A DNA stretch of 64,000 bases from Elusimicrobia bacterium CG1_02_37_114 (GTDB taxonomy: Bacteria > Elusimicrobiota > Endomicrobiia > CG1-02-37-114). The stretch is taken from contig MNXB01000117.1 in the NCBI GenBank assembly GCA_001871125.1, forward strand, positions 5,654-69,653, written 5' to 3'. Both the position numbers and the translations under genes were made by a program. Below are positions 12,386 through 23,857 of this stretch, piece by piece (the stretch's first letter is position 1; each line of letters starts with the position of its first letter). The notes under the pieces were generated by a model. That model saw nothing but the letters and a program-made list of their open reading frames with translations, was not told the origin of the DNA and ran no database searches.

Positions 12386-13120
12386 TTATCCCCCAGGTTT
12401 TGTGGCGATTATCAGAACCGTCCCCATACTTTTAATGTCTCTGAAACTCATTGAACGAAGTTCTTTAAGTTCTATTCTCGGGATGAGGTATGGGTCAGTA
12501 TTTTCTGAAACAAGACATGATTTAGTTGTGCAGGCGCCGGAATAATATTTCTTTACAGTATCCACGATATTGCGGTCATATTCGCCATATGGATAACAGA
12601 ATGTATCAACGGGTTTCTTTGTAATTTTTTCTATGATAGTTTTTGAGGTTTTTATTTCTTCCAGCACTTCGTTAAATGAAATTTGTGTCAGTACCGGATG
12701 AGTAATACAGTGAGAACCAAAATCAATGAGTTCAGACATTTCGGTTATCTGTTCGGCAGAAAGATGCTTCTGTGCAGGACCTGAGCGGGGATATTCATAA
12801 TGTTTCCCGATTGCCCCTGCATTCAGAAAAATAGTTGCGGTAAAATTGTATTTTTTTAATATCGGGAAAGCATCGGTATAGTTGTTTTCATAGCCATCGT
12901 CAAACGTTAGGACAAAGACCTTTTTTGGAATTTTGCTTTTTGTTTTTAAAATTTCTACAAGCTGTTTGAATGGAATTGTGCGAAATCCTCTGGAGTAGAG
13001 ATATTTCATCTGTCTGTCAAAAGTTTTTGGACGGACACATATTCCCTTTAACCCTTCCTTATGTTCTTCTATTTTGTGATACATAATGACAAAAGTTTTG
13101 TTGCTATATAGATTGAACAT
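12386..13120 (-). CDS. polysaccharide deacetylase (NodB/CE4 family)
   Basis: LTFDDGYENNY and HCITHP motifs. Confidence 0.8.
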   Translation of the reverse strand: MFNLYSNKTFVIMYHKIEEHKEGLKGICVRPKTFDRQMKYLYSRGFRTIPFKQLVEILKTKSKIPKKVFVLTFDDGYENNYTDAFPILKKYNFTATIFLNAGAIGKHYEYPRSGPAQKHLSAEQITEMSELIDFGSHCITHPVLTQISFNEVLEEIKTSKTIIEKITKKPVDTFCYPYGEYDRNIVDTVKKYYSGACTTKSCLVSENTDPYLIPRIELKELRSMSFRDIKSMGTVLIIATKPGG

Positions 13121-14108
13121 ATTTTAGTACTCTTTCAGGTGTTATAGATTTCATGCATTTATTGTCCTTGCAGTATCTCATTTTTCTGTTAGTGCAGGGG
13201 GTACAATCCGCTTCACCACAAATAATGATATGTTGATTACCATAAGGTGCCCAGTATTTTTCATCACCCGGAACAAACAGGGCAATCACACGTGTATATA
13301 ATCCTGCAATGTGCATACCACCTGTTGAATTAGTGACATAAAGGTTAAGTTTTTTCATAAATGCGGTGAACTGGTTGAGTGTCGTTTGTCCTGTGAAGTT
13401 TATTATTTTCTTGTTAACTTTTTCCTCAATGTTTTTTCCAATGTGTTCATCTTCTTTACTTCCAAACAAAACAATCTTAATGTTGTCAGCTAACAGATTT
13501 ATCAATTCAACAAAATACTCTTCGGGCCATTTCCTGCTGGATTCGCCCTTGACACCCACTCCCATACCTATGACTTTTGTATTGGCAAGTCCGTAATCAA
13601 CCCAGATTTTTTCTGCATATTTTTCGTCTTCTCCGGATATCCATAATTCAGGTTTAACATCTTTGCTTACTTTAAATCCTGCTTTTGAAAGCAACTCTGT
13701 GAATAATTTATCGCCCGTATCAACTAAAGGATAATTTAAGAATAACCTCCTGCCATTACCGACATAACCCACTCTATTTTTTACTCCGGCAAAATAAGGT
13801 ATTAAGGCAGAATTTAAACTCCCGGGTAATACTATAGCCAAATCAAAATGTTTTTTCTTTAATTCTCTAATAAACCCGATATGATATGACAATGAAGCAC
13901 TCTTTGAATCGTAATTAATTATTTCATTTATATAAGAGCAGTTGTTCAATAATTCTTTAGACCATGACCGCACACAAACACTTATACGACTCTCGGGGAA
14001 GTTGTCTCTTATGACTTTTAATACCGGAGTAGCAAGGACAAATGTCCCTACCCAGTCCGGCATGCGTATAAAAATATTTTTTATGTTTTTTCCAATAATT
14101 TTCTGCAT
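13104..14108 (-). CDS. glycosyltransferase family 9 (LPS heptosyltransferase-like)
   Basis: GT9 C-terminal motif (TNSTGGMHIAG...C..C....C). Confidence 0.8.
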   Translation of the reverse strand: MQKIIGKNIKNIFIRMPDWVGTFVLATPVLKVIRDNFPESRISVCVRSWSKELLNNCSYINEIINYDSKSASLSYHIGFIRELKKKHFDLAIVLPGSLNSALIPYFAGVKNRVGYVGNGRRLFLNYPLVDTGDKLFTELLSKAGFKVSKDVKPELWISGEDEKYAEKIWVDYGLANTKVIGMGVGVKGESSRKWPEEYFVELINLLADNIKIVLFGSKEDEHIGKNIEEKVNKKIINFTGQTTLNQFTAFMKKLNLYVTNSTGGMHIAGLYTRVIALFVPGDEKYWAPYGNQHIIICGEADCTPCTNRKMRYCKDNKCMKSITPERVLKYVQSI

Positions 14109-15049
14109 ACATTGAGCACTTGATTAACTTTAATTTTAGATAGACACGGTGCAGGAAAGCCCTTCGGGCAATTTACTTTATAGCAGGGTCCGCATTCAGG
14201 TTTATCATACATAATTACTGTATTTTCCTTATAGGGACCATACAATGCCGGGTCAGTTGAACCGAATAACCCGATTGTCCTGGCACCGACAGCCACTGCA
14301 AGAAACAATGTCCCTGAATCAGGTGATATGACTAACTCTGCATTACTCAGGAGCGCTGCAAGCTGTTTAATGTTGGTTTTACCGACAATAGAAACAACAT
14401 TCGGAACTCTAATTATTTCTACCGGTTGAATTTCTCTTTTATTTCCAGTAATTATTATCCGGTAATCTCTTAATTCGTTAATTAGACTTGTGTAGTTTTC
14501 AACAGGCCACATTTTTGATTTCCTTGTAGTGCCCGGAGCAATCACTATATACTTTTCATCCGGCTTGATTCCACATTCTTTAAATAGGGCGCCTATATAC
14601 GATTTGTCGCTTTCATTGACGATAAATTCCAAATCATAAGAAACATTATTAACTGGTTTTAATAATTTCACGATTTCAACGTATTCTTTATAAAAAGGTC
14701 TTTTTTTATCATATTTAATATATTTATCCAGAAATAATTTGCTGAATTCTGTATCCACACCGACAATTTCCTTGATACCAACCATCCGGCAGATAAAAGC
14801 ATTAGCAAAAGTTGTCCTCAGCAGAACCGCAATATCGGGTTTTATGCTTTTGATTTCACTGACAAGTCCGAGCTTACCCTTTTTTATAATTGTGGTATTG
14901 ACATAACCTGAAACCGCTTCCTGATATTTCTCGTCTATCAATGCTATTATATCTGCATCTGTAAAACTTTTTCTTAAAAGTTTCAATGCAGGGGTGGTCA
15001 TCAAAATATCGCCAAGATAATTCGGTTCAAAAACCAATATCTTTTTCAT
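14081..15049 (-). CDS. glycosyltransferase family 9 (heptosyltransferase-like), second copy
   Basis: GT9 motifs (SPDSGTLFLAVAVG, CGPC). Overlaps the previous GT9. Confidence 0.8.
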   Translation of the reverse strand: MKKILVFEPNYLGDILMTTPALKLLRKSFTDADIIALIDEKYQEAVSGYVNTTIIKKGKLGLVSEIKSIKPDIAVLLRTTFANAFICRMVGIKEIVGVDTEFSKLFLDKYIKYDKKRPFYKEYVEIVKLLKPVNNVSYDLEFIVNESDKSYIGALFKECGIKPDEKYIVIAPGTTRKSKMWPVENYTSLINELRDYRIIITGNKREIQPVEIIRVPNVVSIVGKTNIKQLAALLSNAELVISPDSGTLFLAVAVGARTIGLFGSTDPALYGPYKENTVIMYDKPECGPCYKVNCPKGFPAPCLSKIKVNQVLNVCRKLLEKT

Positions 15050-15131
15050 AATTTAGCCCGATTTATTAATAAATATATTTTTCAATTAAATAATTTTCCC
15101 TATTCCCCTTCTTGATCACTTCAAGATATAC

Positions 15132-15611
15132 CTAAATATAAAGAGCAGGGAAAATAAAACAAAGATATTTTTCCCATTTTCTAGGGAAGAGGTTTGCAAA
15201 TGTGCTGATAAACATGAATTTGTAAAAATCAGAAAAGTGTAATAAGTGCTTTTTAATTTTGAAAAGTCCTGTTTCTTCAAGACTTATAAATGCACAGTAT
15301 CCGAAGCGGTTTTTATGCTCCATATCCCCGTATGAGAGATGTGAGGAGTAATGCGGAGTGATTATTCTTGCCGTAGCACCATCTTTGGAGATTCTGTATA
15401 CTTCATTCATAACAAGCAGGGGGTTATCAATATGTTCAATAATATTTGACATTTCAATCCAGTCGAATTCGTTGTCCGGGAGGGGGTACGGGAATACATT
15501 CAAATCATGAACCACATCCACATGCGGGGCAACCCTTTTATCTAAACCTATTGAATTTTTTATCTTCCCTTTAAGTCCGCATCCTAAATCAAGTCTTTTC
15601 ATTATAAACAT
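15132..15611 (-). CDS. class I SAM-dependent methyltransferase
   Basis: LDLGCG motif and Methyltransf_11-like core. Confidence 0.75.
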   Translation of the reverse strand: MFIMKRLDLGCGLKGKIKNSIGLDKRVAPHVDVVHDLNVFPYPLPDNEFDWIEMSNIIEHIDNPLLVMNEVYRISKDGATARIITPHYSSHLSYGDMEHKNRFGYCAFISLEETGLFKIKKHLLHFSDFYKFMFISTFANLFPRKWEKYLCFIFPALYI

Positions 15612-15659
15612 TATAAAAATTAATTAAATCTTTTGCAATACCTCCCGGCAAATTCTGGC

Positions 15660-15688
15660 TTGACAAATTATCTGTTGGGATATATAAT
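15660..15688 (+). promoter_or_regulatory. consensus sigma-70 promoter TTGACA-N17-TATAAT
   Basis: Exact hexamers with a 17-nt spacer read from the sequence. Sits 7 nt upstream of ATG 15696. Confidence 0.5.
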
Positions 15689-15695
15689 AATATGT

Positions 15696-16904
15696 ATGAA
15701 TAGTTTACGGAAATATTTCAGCCCTGAAAATTTAATAAAAACTGGCTTGATTGTTTATGTTGCTACGGCATCTGTTTCCATATCCGGCCAGGTGGCAGGT
15801 ATGCTGATTGCTCTGGTCGGCTGGATTATCGGGATAATAACAAAAAAGAAACTTATATGGACTGACATTTCAAAAGAAACCAAAAATTTCATAGGGCTGA
15901 TACTGATATTCCTTGCGGTATTTTTTGTCTCAAGCATATTTTCAAAAGTACCACTGAAAAGTTTTGACAGATTACGATTGATTTTGGGTGAAATGGCTTT
16001 CTTTTTTGTTGTTTTGAACGTCATTGACAGAAAGTTTCTAAAAAAATTAATCGTAATACTTGTTGTATCAACTACGATTGAGTCGGCTTACGGTATAGTT
16101 CAATATTTTACAGGACTGAATATTTTAAGAGACCCTGAAGTCATTCCTTTCTTCCGTGTAAAAGGCACACTGTCACACTGGAATAAACTCGGCAGTATGC
16201 TGGGTATGATTATTCCGTTAACTGTTGCGGTGATTTTTTATTCTGAAAAGAAATTAAGATACATTCTTGCGGTAATACTAATGTCTGTGTGCCTGTGTTT
16301 TACTTTCACAAGAGGCGGATGGATGGCGGCGGGATTTGCAGTCGTGCTTATAGCCCTGCTAAAGGAAAAAAAGTTGTTCTATATTCTCGGTATTGTTTTT
16401 ATACTACTTTTAGTATTCAAACCTTCCAGAAACAGAATAATAGATACGTTTAGTATAACTGAAGGTGATTACCGAAGAATCCTTATGTGGAAAACAAGTT
16501 TAAGAATGATAAAGGACAGGCCTTTCTTAGGTCAGGGACCAAATACATTTCAGGAACTATTTTACAGGGAATATCTTACCGAAGAGACAAAACCAATATT
16601 TTACAACGAAGAACACGGGTATTCCCATCCACATAACGTTTATCTTGGAATAACTGCGGATATGGGTATTACGGGTTTCCTGGCTTTTATGGCCCTACTT
16701 GTATATCTGTTTTATATGACTGCAAGGACTTTTTCAACTACAACGGATGTTTTTTTCAGAACGATTTCACTCGGGATACTCGGGAGTCTTTCTGCTTTGG
16801 CAGTAAATGGACTGGTTGATTATACATTTTCTGCAGAGCCGGTGTATCTTTTCTGGTTTCTTGCAGGCATAATCTTTTCTATAAGAAATAAAAAAATGTT
16901 ATGA
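15696..16904 (+). CDS. O-antigen ligase / Wzy_C family membrane protein
   Basis: Polytopic membrane protein with the Wzy_C loop (YSHPHNVYLGITADMG). The ORF-track start 15633 would include the promoter, so ATG 15696 is preferred (leaderless). Confidence 0.8.
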   Translation: MNSLRKYFSPENLIKTGLIVYVATASVSISGQVAGMLIALVGWIIGIITKKKLIWTDISKETKNFIGLILIFLAVFFVSSIFSKVPLKSFDRLRLILGEMAFFFVVLNVIDRKFLKKLIVILVVSTTIESAYGIVQYFTGLNILRDPEVIPFFRVKGTLSHWNKLGSMLGMIIPLTVAVIFYSEKKLRYILAVILMSVCLCFTFTRGGWMAAGFAVVLIALLKEKKLFYILGIVFILLLVFKPSRNRIIDTFSITEGDYRRILMWKTSLRMIKDRPFLGQGPNTFQELFYREYLTEETKPIFYNEEHGYSHPHNVYLGITADMGITGFLAFMALLVYLFYMTARTFSTTTDVFFRTISLGILGSLSALAVNGLVDYTFSAEPVYLFWFLAGIIFSIRNKKML

Positions 16905-17992
16905 ACATAGCATATCTTGATGCATCTCCGTGCTGGTCAGGCGGTTCTAAACAGGTTTATCTTCTTTCAAGAGAATTAACTAAAAGAGGACACAATGTGC
17001 TGACGGTTTGCCTCTCGCAGAACAAGGAACTGCTGTCACAATTGCAGAAAAATAATTTAAAGGCAATTCCCCTGTTTCCCGTATTTGAATTCAACCCGCT
17101 AAATTTCTTCCGGTTATCAAAAGTATTCAGGGAAAATAAGGTCCAGATTGTTGACATAAATTCCCCGAAATTTTTCTGGTCTGGAGTGTACTCTGCAAAA
17201 TGTTCGGGTATAAAAACCGTAATCACACGCATCGTTACTTACAGGAAAAAAGGGTTGAAGAAATTTATAAATAAAAGATTACTCTATGGGCTATGTGATA
17301 AGGTGGTTGCAATATCATCGGAAATAAAAGCATCATTGCTCGGGGATTTTGGTTTAAGTAACGTTGAACTTATTTATTGCGGTATTGACATAAACGAAAT
17401 TTCTTCAGAAGATAAAAATCGCACGGAATCAATCAGGAACCGTTATGGGTTAAAAGACAAAACAGTCGTAGGTATAACCGGCAGGATTGCTTATGGTAAG
17501 GGGCACACATATTTGATTGAAGCATTGCCTGAGATAAAAAAGAATATCCCGGATATTAAATTACTTGTAGGCGGGACAGGCGAGCAGAATTTTATAAATT
17601 TTTTGAGGCGGAAATCTTCAGAGCTCAAAATTGAGAGAGATGTCATTTTTACGGGTTTTCAGAAAGACGTTAAGGATTTTCTTTATGCAACCGATATAGT
17701 TACCGCACCAAGTCTTGATGAAGCGCTGGGGTTGAGTATAATAGAGGCAATGTCAGCAGGAAAACCCGTTGTGGCATCGGATGTCGGCGGAATACCTGAA
17801 ATTATAGACAATGGTATAGATGGTTTTCTTGTCCCCCCTTCTGATTCAAAAACTCTGGCCGCCTCAATAGTAAAACTCCTTAAATCAGATTATAAAAAGA
17901 TGGGTGAAACAGGGAAAAAGAAAGTCCTTGAAAAATTTTCCGTTGAACAGATGGTTAATAAATACGAGATGCTTTATCGCAGTATAGTTTAG
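16901..17992 (+). CDS. glycosyltransferase family 4
   Basis: GT4 motif EALGLSIIEAMSAGKPVVASDVGGIPEII. Confidence 0.85.
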   Translation: MNIAYLDASPCWSGGSKQVYLLSRELTKRGHNVLTVCLSQNKELLSQLQKNNLKAIPLFPVFEFNPLNFFRLSKVFRENKVQIVDINSPKFFWSGVYSAKCSGIKTVITRIVTYRKKGLKKFINKRLLYGLCDKVVAISSEIKASLLGDFGLSNVELIYCGIDINEISSEDKNRTESIRNRYGLKDKTVVGITGRIAYGKGHTYLIEALPEIKKNIPDIKLLVGGTGEQNFINFLRRKSSELKIERDVIFTGFQKDVKDFLYATDIVTAPSLDEALGLSIIEAMSAGKPVVASDVGGIPEIIDNGIDGFLVPPSDSKTLAASIVKLLKSDYKKMGETGKKKVLEKFSVEQMVNKYEMLYRSIV

Positions 17993-18050: not shown

Positions 18051-18383
18051 TTATCTAAAAGTGATTACTAATTGTTTATGAAAAATATCTGCTAGTTTAG
18101 AAAGTGTTTGTATTGTTAGATTAATTTTGTCTGATTGTTCTATCCTGGAGATATATTGCTGTTTTGTATGTAGTAATTTTGCTAACCCCTCCTGAGAAAT
18201 TCCTCTTTTTTCACGTAATTCAGAAATAGCATGATCTATCCTAACTTGCACCAATTCATTTTGATATCGTTTTTGTGAATCAAGAGTTTTATATTTTTCT
18301 TTTATCCATTTTTTAAATGAGACATGCCCTGTTTTACCAAATTTCTTTTCATCTATTTTCATAACCAACCTGGTAACCTCCAA
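18051..18383 (-). CDS. XRE-family helix-turn-helix protein
   Basis: HTH_XRE (ISQEGLAKLLHTKQQYISRIEQ). Confidence 0.7.
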   Translation of the reverse strand: MEVTRLVMKIDEKKFGKTGHVSFKKWIKEKYKTLDSQKRYQNELVQVRIDHAISELREKRGISQEGLAKLLHTKQQYISRIEQSDKINLTIQTLSKLADIFHKQLVITFR

Positions 18384-18446
18384 ATTTTGTTATTATTTCT
18401 TTCTTAAATGATATTCTTTTCTTAATTTTTTGGGGTAAGCGATTTA

Positions 18447-18830
18447 TTAGACAGTAGCTAAATCTAACGTTTTTATATAATCTTTGTGTTCTTTTTCGGG
18501 TAATGATATTTTTCCATCATCCCATTTAATATTTTGAATAACAATCCAAGCAGAATCCCCTGTCCCATATGCTATTGATCCTAATGTCCATAATGAGTTT
18601 TCAAAAGGTATTCCTTTTTCTTGCAGTAGTTTCTTAAATGGTTCATCTTTGGGAATAATGCAATGTTCTTTTATTAGTCGTTCCCATTCTTCAAAATTCT
18701 TTCCTTTTTCTGTACACGATTCGCGGATTAATTTTGACGCTTCTTCAGGGGACTTGTTTTCTATTTTTGGAATAGTTTTTTCTTTACCTGTTAAATAAGG
18801 TATAAAATTTAGTATAGATATTCTTATCAT
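18447..18830 (-). CDS. hypothetical protein (no recognisable domain) between HigA and the XRE gene
   Basis: ATG at 18830 is preceded by GGAGGA. The ORF-track TTG start at 18854 overlaps higA. Confidence 0.5.
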   Translation of the reverse strand: MIRISILNFIPYLTGKEKTIPKIENKSPEEASKLIRESCTEKGKNFEEWERLIKEHCIIPKDEPFKKLLQEKGIPFENSLWTLGSIAYGTGDSAWIVIQNIKWDDGKISLPEKEHKDYIKTLDLATV

Positions 18831-18831
18831 C

Positions 18832-19206
18832 TTATTTTCTCCTCCCGCAGGCAATGTTGTTAAAATATTGTTTTCCTTCCTGCGTTGTTTCCTTGCTTAT
18901 TAAATATGGAATCAATTCGAGGGGTACAAGCACCGGTCGTACTCCTAAAGACTGAGTAATCTTTTGCAGCGTTTTTATCCTCGGATTTGACTCTGACTTC
19001 TCAATACGCGCGACTTCCGGTTGTGATAGCCTTGATTTATGAGCTAACATAATTTGGGACAACCCCCGAAATTTGCGCATTAAAGCTATTTGTGTTGTAA
19101 GTGGTTGTTCATAAAAGAAATTAAAAAAATATGTCCTGCTTTCCGTGTCTTTACTGAGAGTTTCCATTAAATATTTTTCAAAACCGATTATTTTTTTTGT
19201 TCTCAT
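18832..19206 (-). CDS. higA: HigA-type antitoxin (HTH XRE)
   Basis: HTH_XRE (LMRKFRGLSQIMLAHKSRLSQPEVARIE), downstream of and overlapping the toxin gene. Confidence 0.8.
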   Translation of the reverse strand: MRTKKIIGFEKYLMETLSKDTESRTYFFNFFYEQPLTTQIALMRKFRGLSQIMLAHKSRLSQPEVARIEKSESNPRIKTLQKITQSLGVRPVLVPLELIPYLISKETTQEGKQYFNNIACGRRK

Positions 19207-19562
19207 AGATTTATTGCCTCCTTTGACCTTTTCTTCAATAGATTGGCGTCATTTTTCGGTATTGTTTGTGATTTTTTTTCTAAATAATGAATTAACCAAA
19301 ATATACCTTTATGAATTACAAAATAAATTCTATAATTTATTTTATCGAATTTACGCCTCAATTCCCATAATCCGCCGTGTATTCCGCCAAGAGGTTTAAT
19401 ATCAATTTGTCCTGAGCGCAAGCCTTCTGCTTGTAATATGGCTATGTCTTGGGCTAACCGGGACCAGACTGCTTTCCTTTGAGGATTTAATCTTAATTTC
19501 TCTAAGTGTTCTTTTACATATCCGTCAGTTTTATAGGGGTAAAAATAAATTGTTATATTCAT
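19203..19562 (-). CDS. higB: HigB-like toxin (RelE/ParE superfamily, Gp49-like)
   Basis: Gp49/HigB signature (IKPLGGIHGGLWELRRKFDKINYRIYFVIH). Toxin-first gene order. Confidence 0.8.
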   Translation of the reverse strand: MNITIYFYPYKTDGYVKEHLEKLRLNPQRKAVWSRLAQDIAILQAEGLRSGQIDIKPLGGIHGGLWELRRKFDKINYRIYFVIHKGIFWLIHYLEKKSQTIPKNDANLLKKRSKEAINL

Positions 19563-19654
19563 ATCATATAGCGTATCTGCTATATTTATAGCATATAAAA
19601 CATATTAAGTCAAGGGGAGTTTTTAAAAGGGTTTTTAATAAGCACCCGCAGAGG

Positions 19655-20745
19655 TCTGGACAAACCGCCACTTTTTCTGAAATATTTCAAAAATGTTTTG
19701 CAGGTTTTTTTTCTACGCAACAGTAGAGAAGCTGTATAAAAGCATCGGAGAATTGAAGGTAGAGAACGACTGGCTTAAAAAAAATTGGATCTTTTGCGTT
19801 GAAAGACAAAATATCGCTCATTGACAAGAAAGATGATGAATTCAGCCAGCGGAAACAGTGCCTGCTGCTTGGTGTCAATTGGTCGACAATGCATTATAAA
19901 CCCGTCGGGATAAGACCTATTGACAGGGAAATGATGAACCTGCTGGACGACAAGTATACGTTACACCCGTTTTACGGTGTCCGCAAGATGAAAAAGTTCT
20001 TGAGGGAGAAAGGGTATAAGGTCGGCAATGGGCACGTAAGGACACTGCTGAGGAAAATGGGACTGTTCGCAGTGTTTGCGAAGCCGAATTTGTCGAAACC
20101 GCACCCTGAACACAAGGTATATCCATATCTGTTGAGAGATGTGGATATAATACGGCCGAATCAGGTTTGGAGTACAGATATAACCTATATACGGCTTGGA
20201 CAAGGATTTGCGTACCTTACGGCGGTAATTGACTGGCACAGCAGATGTATTCTCAGCTGGCGGATATCGAATACACTGGAAAGCAGTTTCTGTGTGGAAG
20301 CTCTGGAGGAAGCTATCAGGAACTATGGCTGTCCGGAGATATTCAATACGGACCATGGTAGCCAGTTTACGAGCGAGGATTTCATCGGGGCATTGACGGT
20401 GACGGGAAGGAACATCTCAATCAGCATGGACGGCAGAGGGAGAGCCCACGACAATATATTTGTAGAGAGGTTATGGCGTTCAGTGAAATACGAATGCATT
20501 TACTTGAATGGATACCAGAGCATTCCGGAGGCCAGAGAAGGGTTACGGACCTATTTTGAGTTTTACAACCGGGAACGGTATCATCAATCACTGGATTACG
20601 CCACTCCGTGGCAGATATATTCGGGGGTGTGTAATACCCTTGACGCAGTGACGAACGCGGCTTAAAACGAAAATGAGTGCGGGTTTTTCAGGCAGGGAAA
20701 AGAAGGAAACAGAAATTTCACGGTTCTTTCAAAAAACGGCGGCTT
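19655..20745 (+). mobile_element. IS3-family insertion sequence, 5'-truncated (orfA remnant + orfB)
   Basis: OrfA C-terminal leucine-zipper remnant (..ELKVENDWLKK), A8 slippery run at 19777-19784, orfB in the -1 frame. Candidate imperfect terminal inverted repeats TCTGGACAAACCGCCACTTTT (19655) and AAAACGGCGGCTTACGACAGA (20725). Confidence 0.5.
19799..20665 (+). CDS. IS3-family transposase OrfB (DDE integrase core)
   Basis: rve-domain motifs (WSTDITYIRL, VIDWHSRCIL, HTDHGSQFTS, YNRERYHQSL). Confidence 0.9.
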   Translation: MKDKISLIDKKDDEFSQRKQCLLLGVNWSTMHYKPVGIRPIDREMMNLLDDKYTLHPFYGVRKMKKFLREKGYKVGNGHVRTLLRKMGLFAVFAKPNLSKPHPEHKVYPYLLRDVDIIRPNQVWSTDITYIRLGQGFAYLTAVIDWHSRCILSWRISNTLESSFCVEALEEAIRNYGCPEIFNTDHGSQFTSEDFIGALTVTGRNISISMDGRGRAHDNIFVERLWRSVKYECIYLNGYQSIPEAREGLRTYFEFYNRERYHQSLDYATPWQIYSGVCNTLDAVTNAA

Positions 20746-21457: not shown

Positions 21458-22137
21458 ATTTTTTCTACGACTTTAACAGGGTTTTCTGACTGTGTTATGT
21501 GTCTGCCAATAACCACATAGTCAGCACCATATCTGACAGCCTCTCCAATATGAATGGTGCGTTTCTGGTCTTTGCGTTTCATATTTTCCTCAATTGATAC
21601 TCCGGGCACAAGCGTAAGAAATTTTCTGCCACAGTTTTTCTTCACTGTTTTGAGTTCATTACCGGAACATACAATACCGTCAAGACCGTATTTTTTTGCA
21701 AACAATGCCATTTTTTTTACCTGTCCGTCAATATTCATTCCGCGCATTCCATATAATATACTAAAATCCTCAGTATTAAGACTTGTAAGCACTGTTACAC
21801 CGAATAATATCGGACGGATTGATTTGGGTAATTTGTCCTTCGCATTTACTGATTCCTCAAGCATACTCCTTCCGCCTGAGATATGCAGGGTCAGGGCAAA
21901 CGGTTTGTATTTTCTGCTTATTTCTTCAATGGCAAATCCGACAACAGACGGTATATCGTGATACTTAAGGTCTAAAATGACTTTTTTATTGTGCCTGTTG
22001 AGGAAATTTATTATTTCAGGTGACCCGGTAAAAAGCTTATGACCTATTTTGTAATATTTAACTTTAGATGAAAGTTTATTGATTAAACTTATTGCTTTTT
22101 GCTTATCTACATCAAGCGCAACTACGAGTTTTGCCAT
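21436..22137 (-). CDS. pyrF: orotidine 5'-phosphate decarboxylase
   Basis: OMPdecase motifs (LDLKYHDIP, VALDV). Confidence 0.9.
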   Translation of the reverse strand: MAKLVVALDVDKQKAISLINKLSSKVKYYKIGHKLFTGSPEIINFLNRHNKKVILDLKYHDIPSVVGFAIEEISRKYKPFALTLHISGGRSMLEESVNAKDKLPKSIRPILFGVTVLTSLNTEDFSILYGMRGMNIDGQVKKMALFAKKYGLDGIVCSGNELKTVKKNCGRKFLTLVPGVSIEENMKRKDQKRTIHIGEAVRYGADYVVIGRHITQSENPVKVVEKIWTIKKY

Positions 22138-23020
22138 ATTTTTCCTGTCCCCTCTTCTTTGATAATTTGTCTTTCTTTCCTTGCTTCAATAAACCAGCTT
22201 GCCTGAGTTCACGCTGGACTTTTCGGTAAACTTCACCAAATTCTGGAAGTATTGACACCTGTGAAGAAAGACGAATGTTCCAAAGTTTGTTTAAACGAGG
22301 TTCTTTACGCAAAAACTCTTCCCGGACATCAGTCAGTTTCTTACCCCGGAATTTCCACTTTTCTTCTACGGCACTAACCAACCCCTCTATGTTCACGTGC
22401 TGATTGGTAGCCAGATACCATAAATCATAAAGGTCTCGTGGTTCGTTCCGTGCAATGTCTAAAAGAGCAACTATTTTTTCAGCAGCTATCTCGTCAAGAG
22501 AGTAAGCGTGAATTAGATTATTCTCAGGCAAATCAACATATTCATCATATCCTTTAAGAACTGGTTTTTTTTTAACAGGAAAAACAACTTTCTCTTTTAT
22601 AGTAATATCTACCTTAACATTTTTACCAGTAGCACCGGGCAACGGTCCCTCGTACCCAAGGAAAAAAGTATAACTGTTTTCATGAGTGTAACGGTCATAA
22701 CGGGCAAAACTCATTCTAATACCAGAATCCTGATAAATCCGTTTAAAAACAATGTCAAGATTCTTCTGGATATTTTCAAAATGGCTCTCTTTTGCCAGAG
22801 TCCAATCAAGGTCTTCTGAAAAACGGTAATCAGGAATGTAGCATTTCTTAATACACGTGCCACCCTTGAATAAAAGAATGTCTTTAAGCGGGCTGTAAGA
22901 CAATCCGATTAAAAACCATGATAAACAATAATCACGTTCAAGAATTCCTTCTGGAATACGACGACCACTTTTGCGGACAAGACGATTAGAAAGTAACGAG
23001 AGATTTCGTTGCGGTATCAT
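22112..23020 (-). CDS. AbiEii-family nucleotidyltransferase toxin (type IV TA / abortive infection)
   Basis: DUF1814 signature (LFKGGTCIKKCYIPDYRFSEDLD). Confidence 0.8.
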   Translation of the reverse strand: MIPQRNLSLLSNRLVRKSGRRIPEGILERDYCLSWFLIGLSYSPLKDILLFKGGTCIKKCYIPDYRFSEDLDWTLAKESHFENIQKNLDIVFKRIYQDSGIRMSFARYDRYTHENSYTFFLGYEGPLPGATGKNVKVDITIKEKVVFPVKKKPVLKGYDEYVDLPENNLIHAYSLDEIAAEKIVALLDIARNEPRDLYDLWYLATNQHVNIEGLVSAVEEKWKFRGKKLTDVREEFLRKEPRLNKLWNIRLSSQVSILPEFGEVYRKVQRELRQAGLLKQGKKDKLSKKRGQEKYGKTRSCA

Positions 23021-23023
23021 TTG

Positions 23024-23857
23024 TTATGTCCTTACTACGGATAAAAGTTCTTCAGAAGATACGTTCAATTGGAGTCTCCATTTTCGCAAATACTTTCCTT
23101 CAGAAGGTAAAAGCGGATCCAACCGCACATAAGTTTCACTCAACTGTGAGCGAAGAATTTCCCGGTCCTCAACTGTGCCAATTTTATAAAGTTCAAACAA
23201 AAATCCAAGCCGTCTTATTACTGCACCAATACCGGTTTGGACTGCATACCGGATAAGCCTGGTCTTGTTTATATCATGATGACGTATCCAGAGTCCCTTG
23301 GCTACTTCTGTGAGTCCACCACAATATTCCGGGTTCTTTAGTCCGTCAACAATTGTTCGTTCAGGGTCGCTGACTTTTACTTTTTCCTGTTTTGTTACCC
23401 AGTGGTCAATCAAACCAAAGAAAAGATATTTCCGGGTATGGATAAATTGGAACTCCATCCCCTTCGTTTTAACAGGTCTATGTGATTTTAAGGCTGTTAC
23501 ATAGACAACCAATTGTGGCTGGGTCACCATTCCGTGAATCTCCAGGGCAGTAGCATGTGAGAGATAATAATCCGTTCCATTCATGATTTCTCGGGCAACA
23601 ATTAATGGGTTTCCGGTATATTCAGATTCTTTTCCCATTTCTAATGGAACAAGTATAAAAAGCCCGGGTTTTAATCGTGTAACAATTCCTCTTTCTACAA
23701 GCTTTTTAACAAAGTTGCTTGATGCTACATGGTCTAATTGAAGAATTTGTCGCACTTCTTTTAAGCGAAATAGAGGCTTATTCTGTTCATGAAGCGTCGT
23801 TACTAAACGAGCAGACTGAGGTCCCATGGTTTTTAATTTGGTATCGCTATTACGCAT
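23024..23857 (-). CDS. AbiEi-family antitoxin / transcriptional regulator
   Basis: N-terminal wHTH and AbiEi C-terminal domain, immediately upstream of AbiEii. Confidence 0.8.
   Translation of the reverse strand: MRNSDTKLKTMGPQSARLVTTLHEQNKPLFRLKEVRQILQLDHVASSNFVKKLVERGIVTRLKPGLFILVPLEMGKESEYTGNPLIVAREIMNGTDYYLSHATALEIHGMVTQPQLVVYVTALKSHRPVKTKGMEFQFIHTRKYLFFGLIDHWVTKQEKVKVSDPERTIVDGLKNPEYCGGLTEVAKGLWIRHHDINKTRLIRYAVQTGIGAVIRRLGFLFELYKIGTVEDREILRSQLSETYVRLDPLLPSEGKYLRKWRLQLNVSSEELLSVVRT

What the first reader, a model, noticed from the sequence alone, without database searches (positions are those of the whole stretch)
18051..19562. HigB/HigA followed by an uncharacterised 127-aa protein plus XRE regulator, a possible second TA-like pair
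The toxin-first HigBA pair is followed, with 1-bp spacing and a strong SD (GGAGGA-N9-ATG), by a 127-aa protein with no recognisable domain. A 110-aa XRE-HTH protein comes next. Together this is a four-gene minus-strand operon next to an IS element. The unknown protein is a candidate novel toxin or effector with the XRE protein as its antitoxin/regulator.
Basis: inference. Interest (0 to 1): 0.5.

Follow-up and report, generated by a model that had tools for sequence, protein, structure and literature searches.

The report
Three-gene HigBA module, novel third protein
The unknown 127-residue protein is not paired with the regulator gene after it: it is the conserved third gene of a HigB/HigA-type toxin-antitoxin module, whose antitoxin always carries an extra tail, which makes it look like a new, non-SecB version of the known toxin-antitoxin-chaperone systems.

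Summary
Four minus-strand genes lie at 19562-18051. A is a Gp49/HigB-type toxin. B is an Xre-HTH HigA-type antitoxin with a 33-residue C-terminal tail. C is a 127-aa protein with no match in any family library. D is an Xre-HTH protein.

The proposed C+D toxin/antitoxin pair is not supported. C is a real, rare gene family: dN/dS is 0.10, the AF2 model has pLDDT 93.6, and no neighbour was found in PDB or BFVD. In 17 distinct related loci (36-85% identity to C), C directly follows a tail-bearing B homologue, with spacing from an 8-nt overlap to a 12-nt gap. The Gp49 gene A precedes B wherever the contig reaches that far. The gene after C varies: serine recombinase, unrelated ORFs, or convergent genes. 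A D-like gene follows C only in the window's own lineage. D is a tail-less paralogue of B, and tail-less B paralogues have no C.

The best reading is a TAC-like tripartite toxin-antitoxin module. C would be a dedicated partner (chaperone or adaptor) of the antitoxin tail, analogous to SecB-like HigC but unrelated in sequence and predicted fold. Binding to the tail is inferred, not shown. I rate it a new variant of a known kind, of moderate interest.

The parts
19579..19613 (-). Putative operon promoter with operator: TTGACT (19613-19608), 17-nt spacer, TATAAA (19590-19585), overlapped by the perfect 14-bp palindrome GCTATAAATATAGC (19592-19579).
   Evidence: Read from the sequence. The palindrome is unique in the window, with 0.01 expected by chance. 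An inverted repeat is also reported. Related loci L027 and L013 have TTGAC(A/T)-N17-TATAAT-like sites with palindromic spacers at the same place. The consensus scan did not list this site because the second hexamer lacks T at position 6. Function is inferred.
19203..19562 (-). Gene A: Gp49/DUF891 (HigB/Tad-type, RelE/ParE superfamily) toxin, 119 aa.
   Evidence: Pfam PF05973, E 6.6e-9, above the gathering score. The closest solved chain is named HigB toxin, 6af3_A. A is conserved upstream of B-C in 13 loci, where complete copies are 43-63% identical to the window's A.
18832..19206 (-). Gene B: Xre-HTH HigA/Ata-type antitoxin, 124 aa. HTH at residues 42-91. It overlaps A by 4 nt.
   Evidence: Pfam HTH_3, E 2.2e-10. 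The closest solved chain is named HigA antitoxin, 6af3_B, which is 97 aa and has no tail. The B family search returned only 4 clusters.
18835..18933 (-). C-terminal extension of B (residues 92-124, VLVPLELIPYLISKETTQEGKQYFNNIACGRRK). This is the proposed docking element for C, analogous to a ChAD.
   Evidence: A tail of 30-33 residues is present in every C-linked B homologue. All 15 distinct tails retain the motif G-[EDK]-x-[YF]-[FL]-x-x-[IVL]-[AVT]. It is the fastest-evolving part of B, at 18-30% identity against 37-62% for the HTH core. It is absent from tail-less paralogues, which have no C. AF2 of B alone predicts two helices here at low confidence.
18447..18830 (-). Gene C: 127-aa protein of an uncharacterised family, the conserved third gene of the module. 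Proposed tail-binding chaperone or adaptor.
18051..18383 (-). Gene D: Xre-HTH protein, 110 aa from TTG or 103 aa from the ATG at 18362. It is a tail-less paralogue of B and a lineage-specific addition, not part of the conserved module.
   Evidence: HTH_3, E 8e-13. 30% identical to B over 79 aa, E 6e-7. Found downstream of C only in L001-L010.
19693..20665 (+). Neighbouring IS3-family element remnant: a 43-aa orfA fragment plus a 288-aa rve transposase, divergent from the module.
   Evidence: Pfam rve, rve_3 and HTH_21. GC is 43-48% here, against 27-34% for the cassette and 35-39% for the flanks.

Best explanation
A, B and C form one tripartite toxin-antitoxin module on a horizontally acquired cassette.

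- A is a Gp49/HigB-type toxin. Members of this family cut ribosome-bound mRNA, which is family knowledge (PMC11980606).
- B is its Xre-HTH antitoxin and probably the repressor acting at the palindrome over the promoter.
- B carries a 33-residue C-terminal extension that ordinary two-gene HigA/Ata antitoxins lack.
- C is translated immediately after B. It is most likely a dedicated protein partner of that extension, holding or stabilising B (chaperone or adaptor) so that A stays neutralised. Loss or titration of C would then free the toxin.

This is the logic of toxin-antitoxin-chaperone (TAC) systems, but C is unrelated to SecB in sequence and predicted fold. D is an extra, tail-less antitoxin-like regulator acquired only in this lineage.

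Shown here: gene identities, the conserved A-B(tail)-C architecture, tight coupling, purifying selection, and the absence of a match in the family and structure libraries searched. Inferred: that C binds the tail, and whether it stabilises or antagonises B.
For: 1. B-C adjacency with tight coupling occurs in 17 distinct loci. A is upstream in 13 of them; the other 4 are cut by contig ends.
2. An independent search starting from B reached the same triads: L027, L028 and L030, with C at 51-52% identity.
3. The gene after C varies. It is a serine recombinase in L020, L022, L038, L023 and L042. Elsewhere it is an unrelated ORF or a convergent gene.
4. Tail and C go together. Every C-linked B has a 30-33-residue tail with a retained aromatic motif. 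Tail-less relatives have no C: the second Gp49/HTH pair in L023, D in the window, and the 97-aa chain named HigA antitoxin in 6af3.
5. The tail and C are the faster-diverging parts, as expected of a specificity interface. In L027 the identities are A 63%, B core 62-74%, C 48% and tail 27%. In TACs the ChAD regions likewise show no significant similarity to each other and chaperones are largely specific to their cognate system (PMC5105189).
6. C homologues also close other tightly overlapping three-gene sets. One is DUF6932 + a different HTH protein whose tail ends GDIFFAQLAGG, compared with GDIFFSKIVFGK in L027. Another is two small TM proteins + C. This resembles SecB-like chaperones combining with HigBA, MqsRA, HicAB and CmdTA (PMC5105189; bioRxiv 10.1101/2024.02.24.581848).
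7. Columns conserved across the C family are hydrophobic or aromatic plus Gly and one near-invariant Asp, and the pI is near neutral.
8. The M. tuberculosis TAC toxin HigB1 is classed in the same Gp49 Pfam family (PMC11980606).
Against:
- The model of B alone is low confidence (pLDDT 68.5) and does not show a disordered or aggregation-prone tail.
- An HMM built from the tails did not significantly detect the tails of the non-Gp49 partners (best relevant hit E 2.6). The cross-architecture motif therefore rests on one strict regex match (L025) plus visual resemblance.
- C is not SecB-like, so the chaperone label is by analogy only.
- About 8 distinct C homologues lie in non-TA-looking contexts, for example next to giant Big_1 surface proteins.
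- The AlphaFold database could not be searched, so "no known fold" is limited to PDB and BFVD.
Confidence: 0.45

Rival explanations
1. C belongs to the tripartite module but does not act through the B tail. It could be a second antitoxin or modulator that binds toxin A directly, a co-repressor of the operon, or an anti-antitoxin or trigger that releases A in response to a signal.
For: The same conserved A-B-C architecture and coupling apply. Nothing computed here shows which protein C contacts. In L024/L041 the A gene is frameshifted while B and C remain intact. This fits C working with B, or having a role independent of A.
Against: The strict co-occurrence of C with the B tail, and the absence of C next to tail-less B paralogues that still have a Gp49 partner, point to the tail. 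C also occurs without any Gp49 toxin, in L025, L026 and L046. C has no DNA-binding signature, and its pI is about 6.
Confidence: 0.2
2. C is independent cargo of the mobile element that happens to sit after the TA pair. Examples would be an anti-defence protein or an accessory or directionality factor for the adjacent recombinase.
Against: Translational coupling to B persists down to 36% identity across different flanking contexts. Many loci have no recombinase nearby: the window, L011, L021, L027, L040 and L043. There are no homologues in IMG/VR viral contigs, INPHARED phages or PLSDB plasmids. C is not acidic like DNA-mimic Acr proteins.
Confidence: 0.12
3. C is itself a toxin or effector and B, through its tail, is its antitoxin. 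One antitoxin would then control two toxins.
For: Antitoxin-then-toxin order with overlapping genes is common in type II systems. C follows small proteins in other architectures.
Against: The family has few conserved polar residues, apart from one near-invariant Asp. There is no similarity to any toxin family or fold. In the TM1-TM2-C sets the upstream small membrane proteins look more toxin-like than C does.
Confidence: 0.1
4. One reading: C is a novel toxin or effector and D, the XRE protein, is its antitoxin or regulator, forming a second TA-like pair after HigBA.
For: D is antitoxin-like: an Xre HTH protein and a paralogue of B. It lies downstream on the same strand with no terminator-like site between.
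Against: The C-D pairing exists only in the window's own lineage, and none of the other C loci has a D-like gene after C. The C-D spacer is 63-84 nt, whereas the other junctions range from an 8-nt overlap to a 12-nt gap. C is always coupled to the upstream gene.
Confidence: 0.06

Closest known systems
Toxin-antitoxin-chaperone (TAC) systems: M. tuberculosis HigB1-HigA1-SecB(TA) (Rv1955-57) and E. coli HigBAC/CmdTAC (PMC5105189; PMC6377645; bioRxiv 10.1101/2024.02.24.581848)
   Same: The gene order is toxin, antitoxin, third gene. The toxin belongs to the Gp49/HigB group, in which Mtb HigB1 is also classed (PMC11980606). The antitoxin is an Xre-HTH protein with a short C-terminal extension that two-gene relatives lack. 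That extension is poorly conserved between systems but contains aromatic residues. The third gene recombines with different upstream gene pairs.
Two-gene Gp49/Tad-Ata and HigBA modules, e.g. the HigBA entry 6af3 and P. aminophilus Tad-Ata (PMC2701414)
   Same: A and B are homologous to these families. The order is toxin first, the genes overlap, and a palindrome lies at the promoter.
   Different: Those antitoxins are about 95-100 aa with no tail, and no third gene follows. Here a 33-residue tail and gene C are added and co-inherited.
Other three-gene TA systems in which the extra gene is a regulator or protease, e.g. PaaR2-PaaA2-ParE2 (own knowledge) and the predicted COG2856-Xre-toxin systems (PMC2701414)
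   Same: These are three-component TA logic on mobile DNA.
   Different: In those systems the extra component is a DNA-binding regulator or a metalloprotease. C has neither signature.
Anti-CRISPR/Aca operons (small novel protein plus HTH regulator)

Membership tests
Gp49/HigB-HigA (Tad-Ata) type II toxin-antitoxin pair (genes A and B) | The toxin matches the Gp49/DUF891 (PF05973) profile above the curated threshold. | tested here: met
   36.1 bits against a cut-off of 23.9, E 6.6e-9. The closest solved chain is named HigB toxin, 6af3_A, E 2e-4.
Gp49/HigB-HigA (Tad-Ata) type II toxin-antitoxin pair (genes A and B) | An Xre/Cro-type HTH antitoxin is encoded immediately downstream (toxin-first order), overlapping or tightly spaced. 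| tested here: met
   HTH_3, E 2.2e-10. 4-nt ATGA overlap. The closest solved chain is named HigA antitoxin, 6af3_B, E 1.7e-6.
Gp49/HigB-HigA (Tad-Ata) type II toxin-antitoxin pair (genes A and B) | Autoregulated promoter with a palindromic operator. | tested here: inconclusive
   A TTGACT-N17-TATAAA site with a unique 14-bp palindrome lies over the -10. Similar layouts occur in L027 and L013. Binding was not tested, and the consensus scan did not list the site.
Gp49/HigB-HigA (Tad-Ata) type II toxin-antitoxin pair (genes A and B) | The toxin arrests growth and the antitoxin neutralises it. | not testable with these tools
   This needs expression experiments.
TAC (toxin-antitoxin-chaperone) system | Three co-oriented, tightly linked genes in the order toxin, antitoxin, third gene, conserved across relatives. 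| tested here: met
   Thirteen loci show the full A-B-C set and 4 more show B-C cut by contig ends. Junctions range from an 8-nt overlap to a 12-nt gap.
TAC (toxin-antitoxin-chaperone) system | The third gene encodes a SecB-like chaperone. | tested here: not met
TAC (toxin-antitoxin-chaperone) system | The antitoxin carries a C-terminal extension (ChAD) that is absent from two-gene relatives. | tested here: met
   B has 33 residues beyond the HTH, and all C-linked B homologues have a tail. Tail-less paralogues (D, and the second pair in L023) and the 97-aa chain 6af3_B named HigA antitoxin have no C.
TAC (toxin-antitoxin-chaperone) system | The extension makes the antitoxin dependent on the third protein, which binds it. 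| not testable with these tools
The model of B alone is low confidence.
TAC (toxin-antitoxin-chaperone) system | The third gene is modular: it is found with different toxin-antitoxin families. | tested here: inconclusive
   L025 has DUF6932 + a different HTH protein with a similar tail + C. TM1-TM2-C sets also exist. However, L025 is a single locus, the toxin status of DUF6932 is unknown, and the tail HMM was not significant.
Second type II TA pair made of C (toxin) and D (antitoxin) | The two genes are co-inherited as a pair in relatives. | tested here: not met
   A D-like gene follows C only in L001-L010, which are the same lineage. It is absent after C in all other loci.
Anti-CRISPR/Aca-type anti-defence operon | A small protein with a conserved adjacent HTH (Aca) gene, on phage, plasmid or prophage DNA. 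| tested here: not met
   The downstream HTH gene is not conserved. There are no homologues in IMG/VR, INPHARED or PLSDB. Structural similarity to Acr proteins is not significant.

The most novel reading that the evidence does not exclude
C founds a new, non-SecB class of tail-recognition partner proteins with a fold not matched in PDB. These proteins plug into different two-gene 'warheads' (Gp49-HTH, DUF6932-HTH, paired small membrane proteins) by reading a short aromatic C-terminal motif on the protein encoded just upstream. Like HigC in E. coli HigBAC, they may act as the sensor that releases the toxin when a phage or stress protein competes for them.
Probability: 0.3. Interest if true: 0.75.

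Novelty: new variant of a known kind. Interest (0 to 1): 0.55.

Why it matters
All TAC-type systems described in the papers consulted use SecB-like chaperones. A second, unrelated protein family occupying the same genetic slot would matter for three reasons.

- It would show that "antitoxin addiction to a dedicated partner" evolved more than once.
- It would give a new small fold to characterise.
- It would offer a new candidate sensor module for abortive-infection-type defence in poorly studied groundwater lineages such as Elusimicrobiota.

It also corrects the annotation logic for this locus. The module is three genes plus a stray regulator, not two TA pairs.

Tried and rejected
- **Family assignment for C.** Pfam, NCBIfam, PADLOC and PHROGs gave nothing for C. 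Scanning 23 family members gave only scattered single weak hits.
- **Profile search of C against PDB sequences.** It hit only designed armadillo repeats over a 16-residue stretch. I judged these spurious.
- **AF2 of B alone.** pLDDT was 68.5, which is uninformative about the tail.
- **HMM of Gp49-class tails searched against loci lacking A/B.** The result was not significant, so I do not claim a shared motif across all architectures.
- **Related-loci scan with the full 23-sequence alignment.** It failed because no conserved stretch was found. I redid it with 8 closer sequences.
- **Searches for C elsewhere.** Viral contigs, phage records and plasmid records contain no C homologue.
- **Literature search for DUF6932.** No papers were found.
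- **Readings considered and rejected.** The Acr/Aca reading, the C-D TA pair and a recombination directionality factor were each rejected for the reasons given under the rival explanations.

Full report
**1. Observation**

The minus strand between 19562 and 18051 carries four consecutive ORFs.
- A, 19562-19203, 119 aa.
- B, 19206-18832, 124 aa, overlapping A by ATGA.
- C, 18830-18447, 127 aa. The B stop TAA is at 18834-18832, then one base, then ATG. GGAGGA lies 9 nt upstream of that ATG.
- D, 18383 or 18362 to 18051, 110 or 103 aa, after a 63-84-nt spacer.

Family matches:
- A matches Pfam Gp49/DUF891 above the gathering score (E 6.6e-9).
- B has an Xre-type HTH_3 domain at residues 42-91.
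- D has HTH_3 at residues 46-96.
- C matches nothing in Pfam, NCBIfam, PADLOC or PHROGs.

The closest solved relatives of A and B are chains named HigB toxin and HigA antitoxin in entry 6af3. An IS3-family transposase lies divergently at 19799-20665. Every factual element of the finding is therefore confirmed.

**2. C is a real gene of a small, uncharacterised family**

- The word-indexed search of 5.8 billion proteins found only two near-identical clusters.
- The exhaustive phmmer search of 1.84 billion representatives found 14 proteins.
- A profile search added a few more.
- Against an 85%-identical homologue, dN/dS is 0.10.

An AF2 model built on 23 sequences is confident (pLDDT 93.6, pTM 0.87). 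It is a compact alpha/beta protein with three strands and six helices.

Columns conserved across the family are hydrophobic or aromatic plus Gly, and one near-invariant Asp (L80, A87, G89, W95, I96, I101, W103, D105). The pI is about 6.

**3. Genomic context decides the interpretation**

Contigs carrying the 98%-identical protein (L001-L010) are the same lineage and show the same four genes.

All other relatives tell a different story. I gathered loci in four ways:
- look-ups of the encoding contigs;
- a scan of GTDB genomes;
- a scan of JGI metagenomes;
- an independent search starting from B.

I then scored every stop-to-stop segment with HMMs of A, B and C.

Seventeen distinct loci (C 36-85% identical to the window) have C directly after a B homologue. 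The junctions range from an 8-nt overlap to a 12-nt gap. Thirteen of these also show the Gp49 gene A in front. The other four are cut by a contig end.

The gene after C is not conserved:
- a large serine recombinase in L020, L022, L038, L023 and L042;
- a 158-aa ORF in L011;
- a TM protein and then an integrase in L013;
- convergent or unrelated genes elsewhere.

A D-like gene follows C only in the window's lineage. D itself is a paralogue of B (30% identity over 79 aa, E 6e-7) that stops right after the HTH.

**4. The tail**

B extends 33 residues beyond its HTH, whereas the related solved chain named HigA antitoxin (6af3_B) is only 97 aa.

Every C-linked B homologue has such a tail of 30-33 residues. 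All 15 distinct tails retain the short motif G-[EDK]-x-[YF]-[FL]-x-x-[IVL]-[AVT] near the C-terminus.

The tail is the fastest-diverging part of B, at 18-30% identity against 37-62% for the HTH core. In close comparisons C diverges faster than A and the B core. In L027 the figures are A 63%, B core 62-74%, C 48% and tail 27%.

Natural controls point the same way. The second Gp49/HTH pair in L023 (7125-7787) and D in the window both lack the tail, and neither is followed by C.

**5. Other architectures**

About eight distinct C homologues are not next to A/B.
- In L025 (an Elusimicrobiota MAG) the set is DUF6932 + an HTH protein not detected by the B HMM + C, with ATGTTTAA and ATGCTTAA overlaps. 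That HTH protein ends ...TGDIFFAQLAGGIHA, close to L027's ...EGDIFFSKIVFGK.
- In L026/L047, L044 and L046, C follows two small membrane proteins, again with overlapping start and stop codons.
- In L014-L016 and L018, C sits between a 64-79-aa protein and a giant Big_1 surface protein.

An HMM built from the Gp49-class tails did not significantly detect these other partners' C-termini. A shared docking motif across all architectures is therefore only suggestive. The L025 match to the strict regex is the one solid case.

**6. Mechanism**

The best-supported reading is a tripartite module built like a TAC system.

In TACs, a SecB-like chaperone binds a short, poorly conserved, aromatic C-terminal extension (ChAD) of the antitoxin and keeps it soluble and stable. 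Chaperones are largely specific to their cognate ChAD, and the arrangement occurs with several TA families (PMC5105189). In E. coli HigBAC a phage protein competes with the ChAD for the chaperone and thereby triggers the toxin (bioRxiv 10.1101/2024.02.24.581848). The M. tuberculosis TAC toxin HigB1 belongs to the same Gp49 Pfam family as A (PMC11980606).

Here the order toxin, antitoxin plus tail, third gene is met, as is the link between tail and third gene. But the third protein is not SecB-like. The locus therefore fails TAC membership on that defining feature, while plausibly working like a TAC.

Other details:
- A promoter-like TTGACT-N17-TATAAA lies upstream of A, with a unique 14-bp palindrome over the -10 (19579-19592). 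Similar layouts occur in L027 and L013. This fits autorepression by B.
- No terminator-like site occurs in the region, so D may be co-transcribed.
- The cassette has a lower GC (27-34%) than its flanks. It sits beside an IS remnant between pyrE and LPS glycosyltransferase genes, so it was probably acquired horizontally.

What is not shown: that C binds B, and whether it stabilises or antagonises B.

**7. Rivals**

- C acts in the module but not through the tail (second antitoxin, co-repressor or trigger): 0.2.
- C is unrelated mobile-element cargo, such as an anti-defence protein or a recombinase accessory factor: 0.12.
- C is a toxin controlled by B: 0.1.

The reasons are given in the structured fields.

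**8. Novelty and score**

The A/B pair is ordinary. The conserved third gene is not described in the libraries or papers searched, and it has no PDB fold neighbour.

I rate it a new variant of a known kind: a TAC-like tripartite TA with a non-SecB third component. Interest is 0.55. A TA or defence specialist would want to test it, but the function is inferred from context only and the family is rare.

Noticed in passing
window 22112-23857 (-): An AbiEi antitoxin (277 aa) and an AbiEii nucleotidyltransferase toxin (302 aa) form a pair directly upstream of pyrF. The AbiEii 3' end overlaps the pyrF start by 26 nt. This puts a second TA/abortive-infection module within 3 kb of the finding.
   Followed up: partly
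window 19693-20665 (+): The IS3-family element appears 5'-truncated: only a 43-aa remnant of orfA precedes the 288-aa rve transposase. Its GC is 43-48%, against 35-39% for the flanks and 27-34% for the A-D cassette.
   Followed up: partly
L025 4042-5378: In an Elusimicrobiota MAG, DUF6932 (147 aa, E 3.5e-24), an HTH protein with a C-terminal tail, and a C homologue (44% identity) are linked by 7-8-nt start/stop overlaps. This is a possible second 'warhead' for the C family. No paper in the library mentions DUF6932.
   Followed up: partly
L046 1-675; L026 4592-5378; L047; L044 423-1168: C homologues are encoded right after small single-pass membrane proteins. In L026 and L046 there are two of these, joined by overlapping stop and start codons. 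The protein just before C ends in ...F-x-x-x-M-A-L-G-G or similar. The function is unknown.
   Followed up: partly
L014 295-3941; L016 133-3098; L018 154-3377: More distant C homologues (28-31% identity) sit between a 64-79-aa protein and very large Big_1-domain surface proteins. This context does not look like a TA system.
   Followed up: no
L020 706-1548; L022 5348-7015; L023 5342-7156; L042 3151-4023: A large serine recombinase gene starts at or within about 30 nt of the C stop in several triads. L013 instead has TrbI upstream and a tyrosine integrase downstream. The module therefore sits at the edge of integrative elements.
   Followed up: partly
L024 1053-1401 and L041 614-962: The Gp49 toxin gene is split into two frames (apparently frameshifted) while B and C remain intact. 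This could be toxin decay with the antitoxin and partner retained.
   Followed up: no
L023 7125-7787 (-): A second Gp49 + HTH pair lies 1.8 kb from the triad. Its HTH protein lacks the tail (96 aa) and no C gene follows it. I used it as a natural control.
   Followed up: yes
window 12386-17992: The cassette is inserted next to an LPS/O-antigen-type cluster with GT9 heptosyltransferase-like genes, a Wzy_C ligase or polymerase, GT4 and a methyltransferase-like gene. These are Pfam labels from the identical contigs L001-L010.
   Followed up: no
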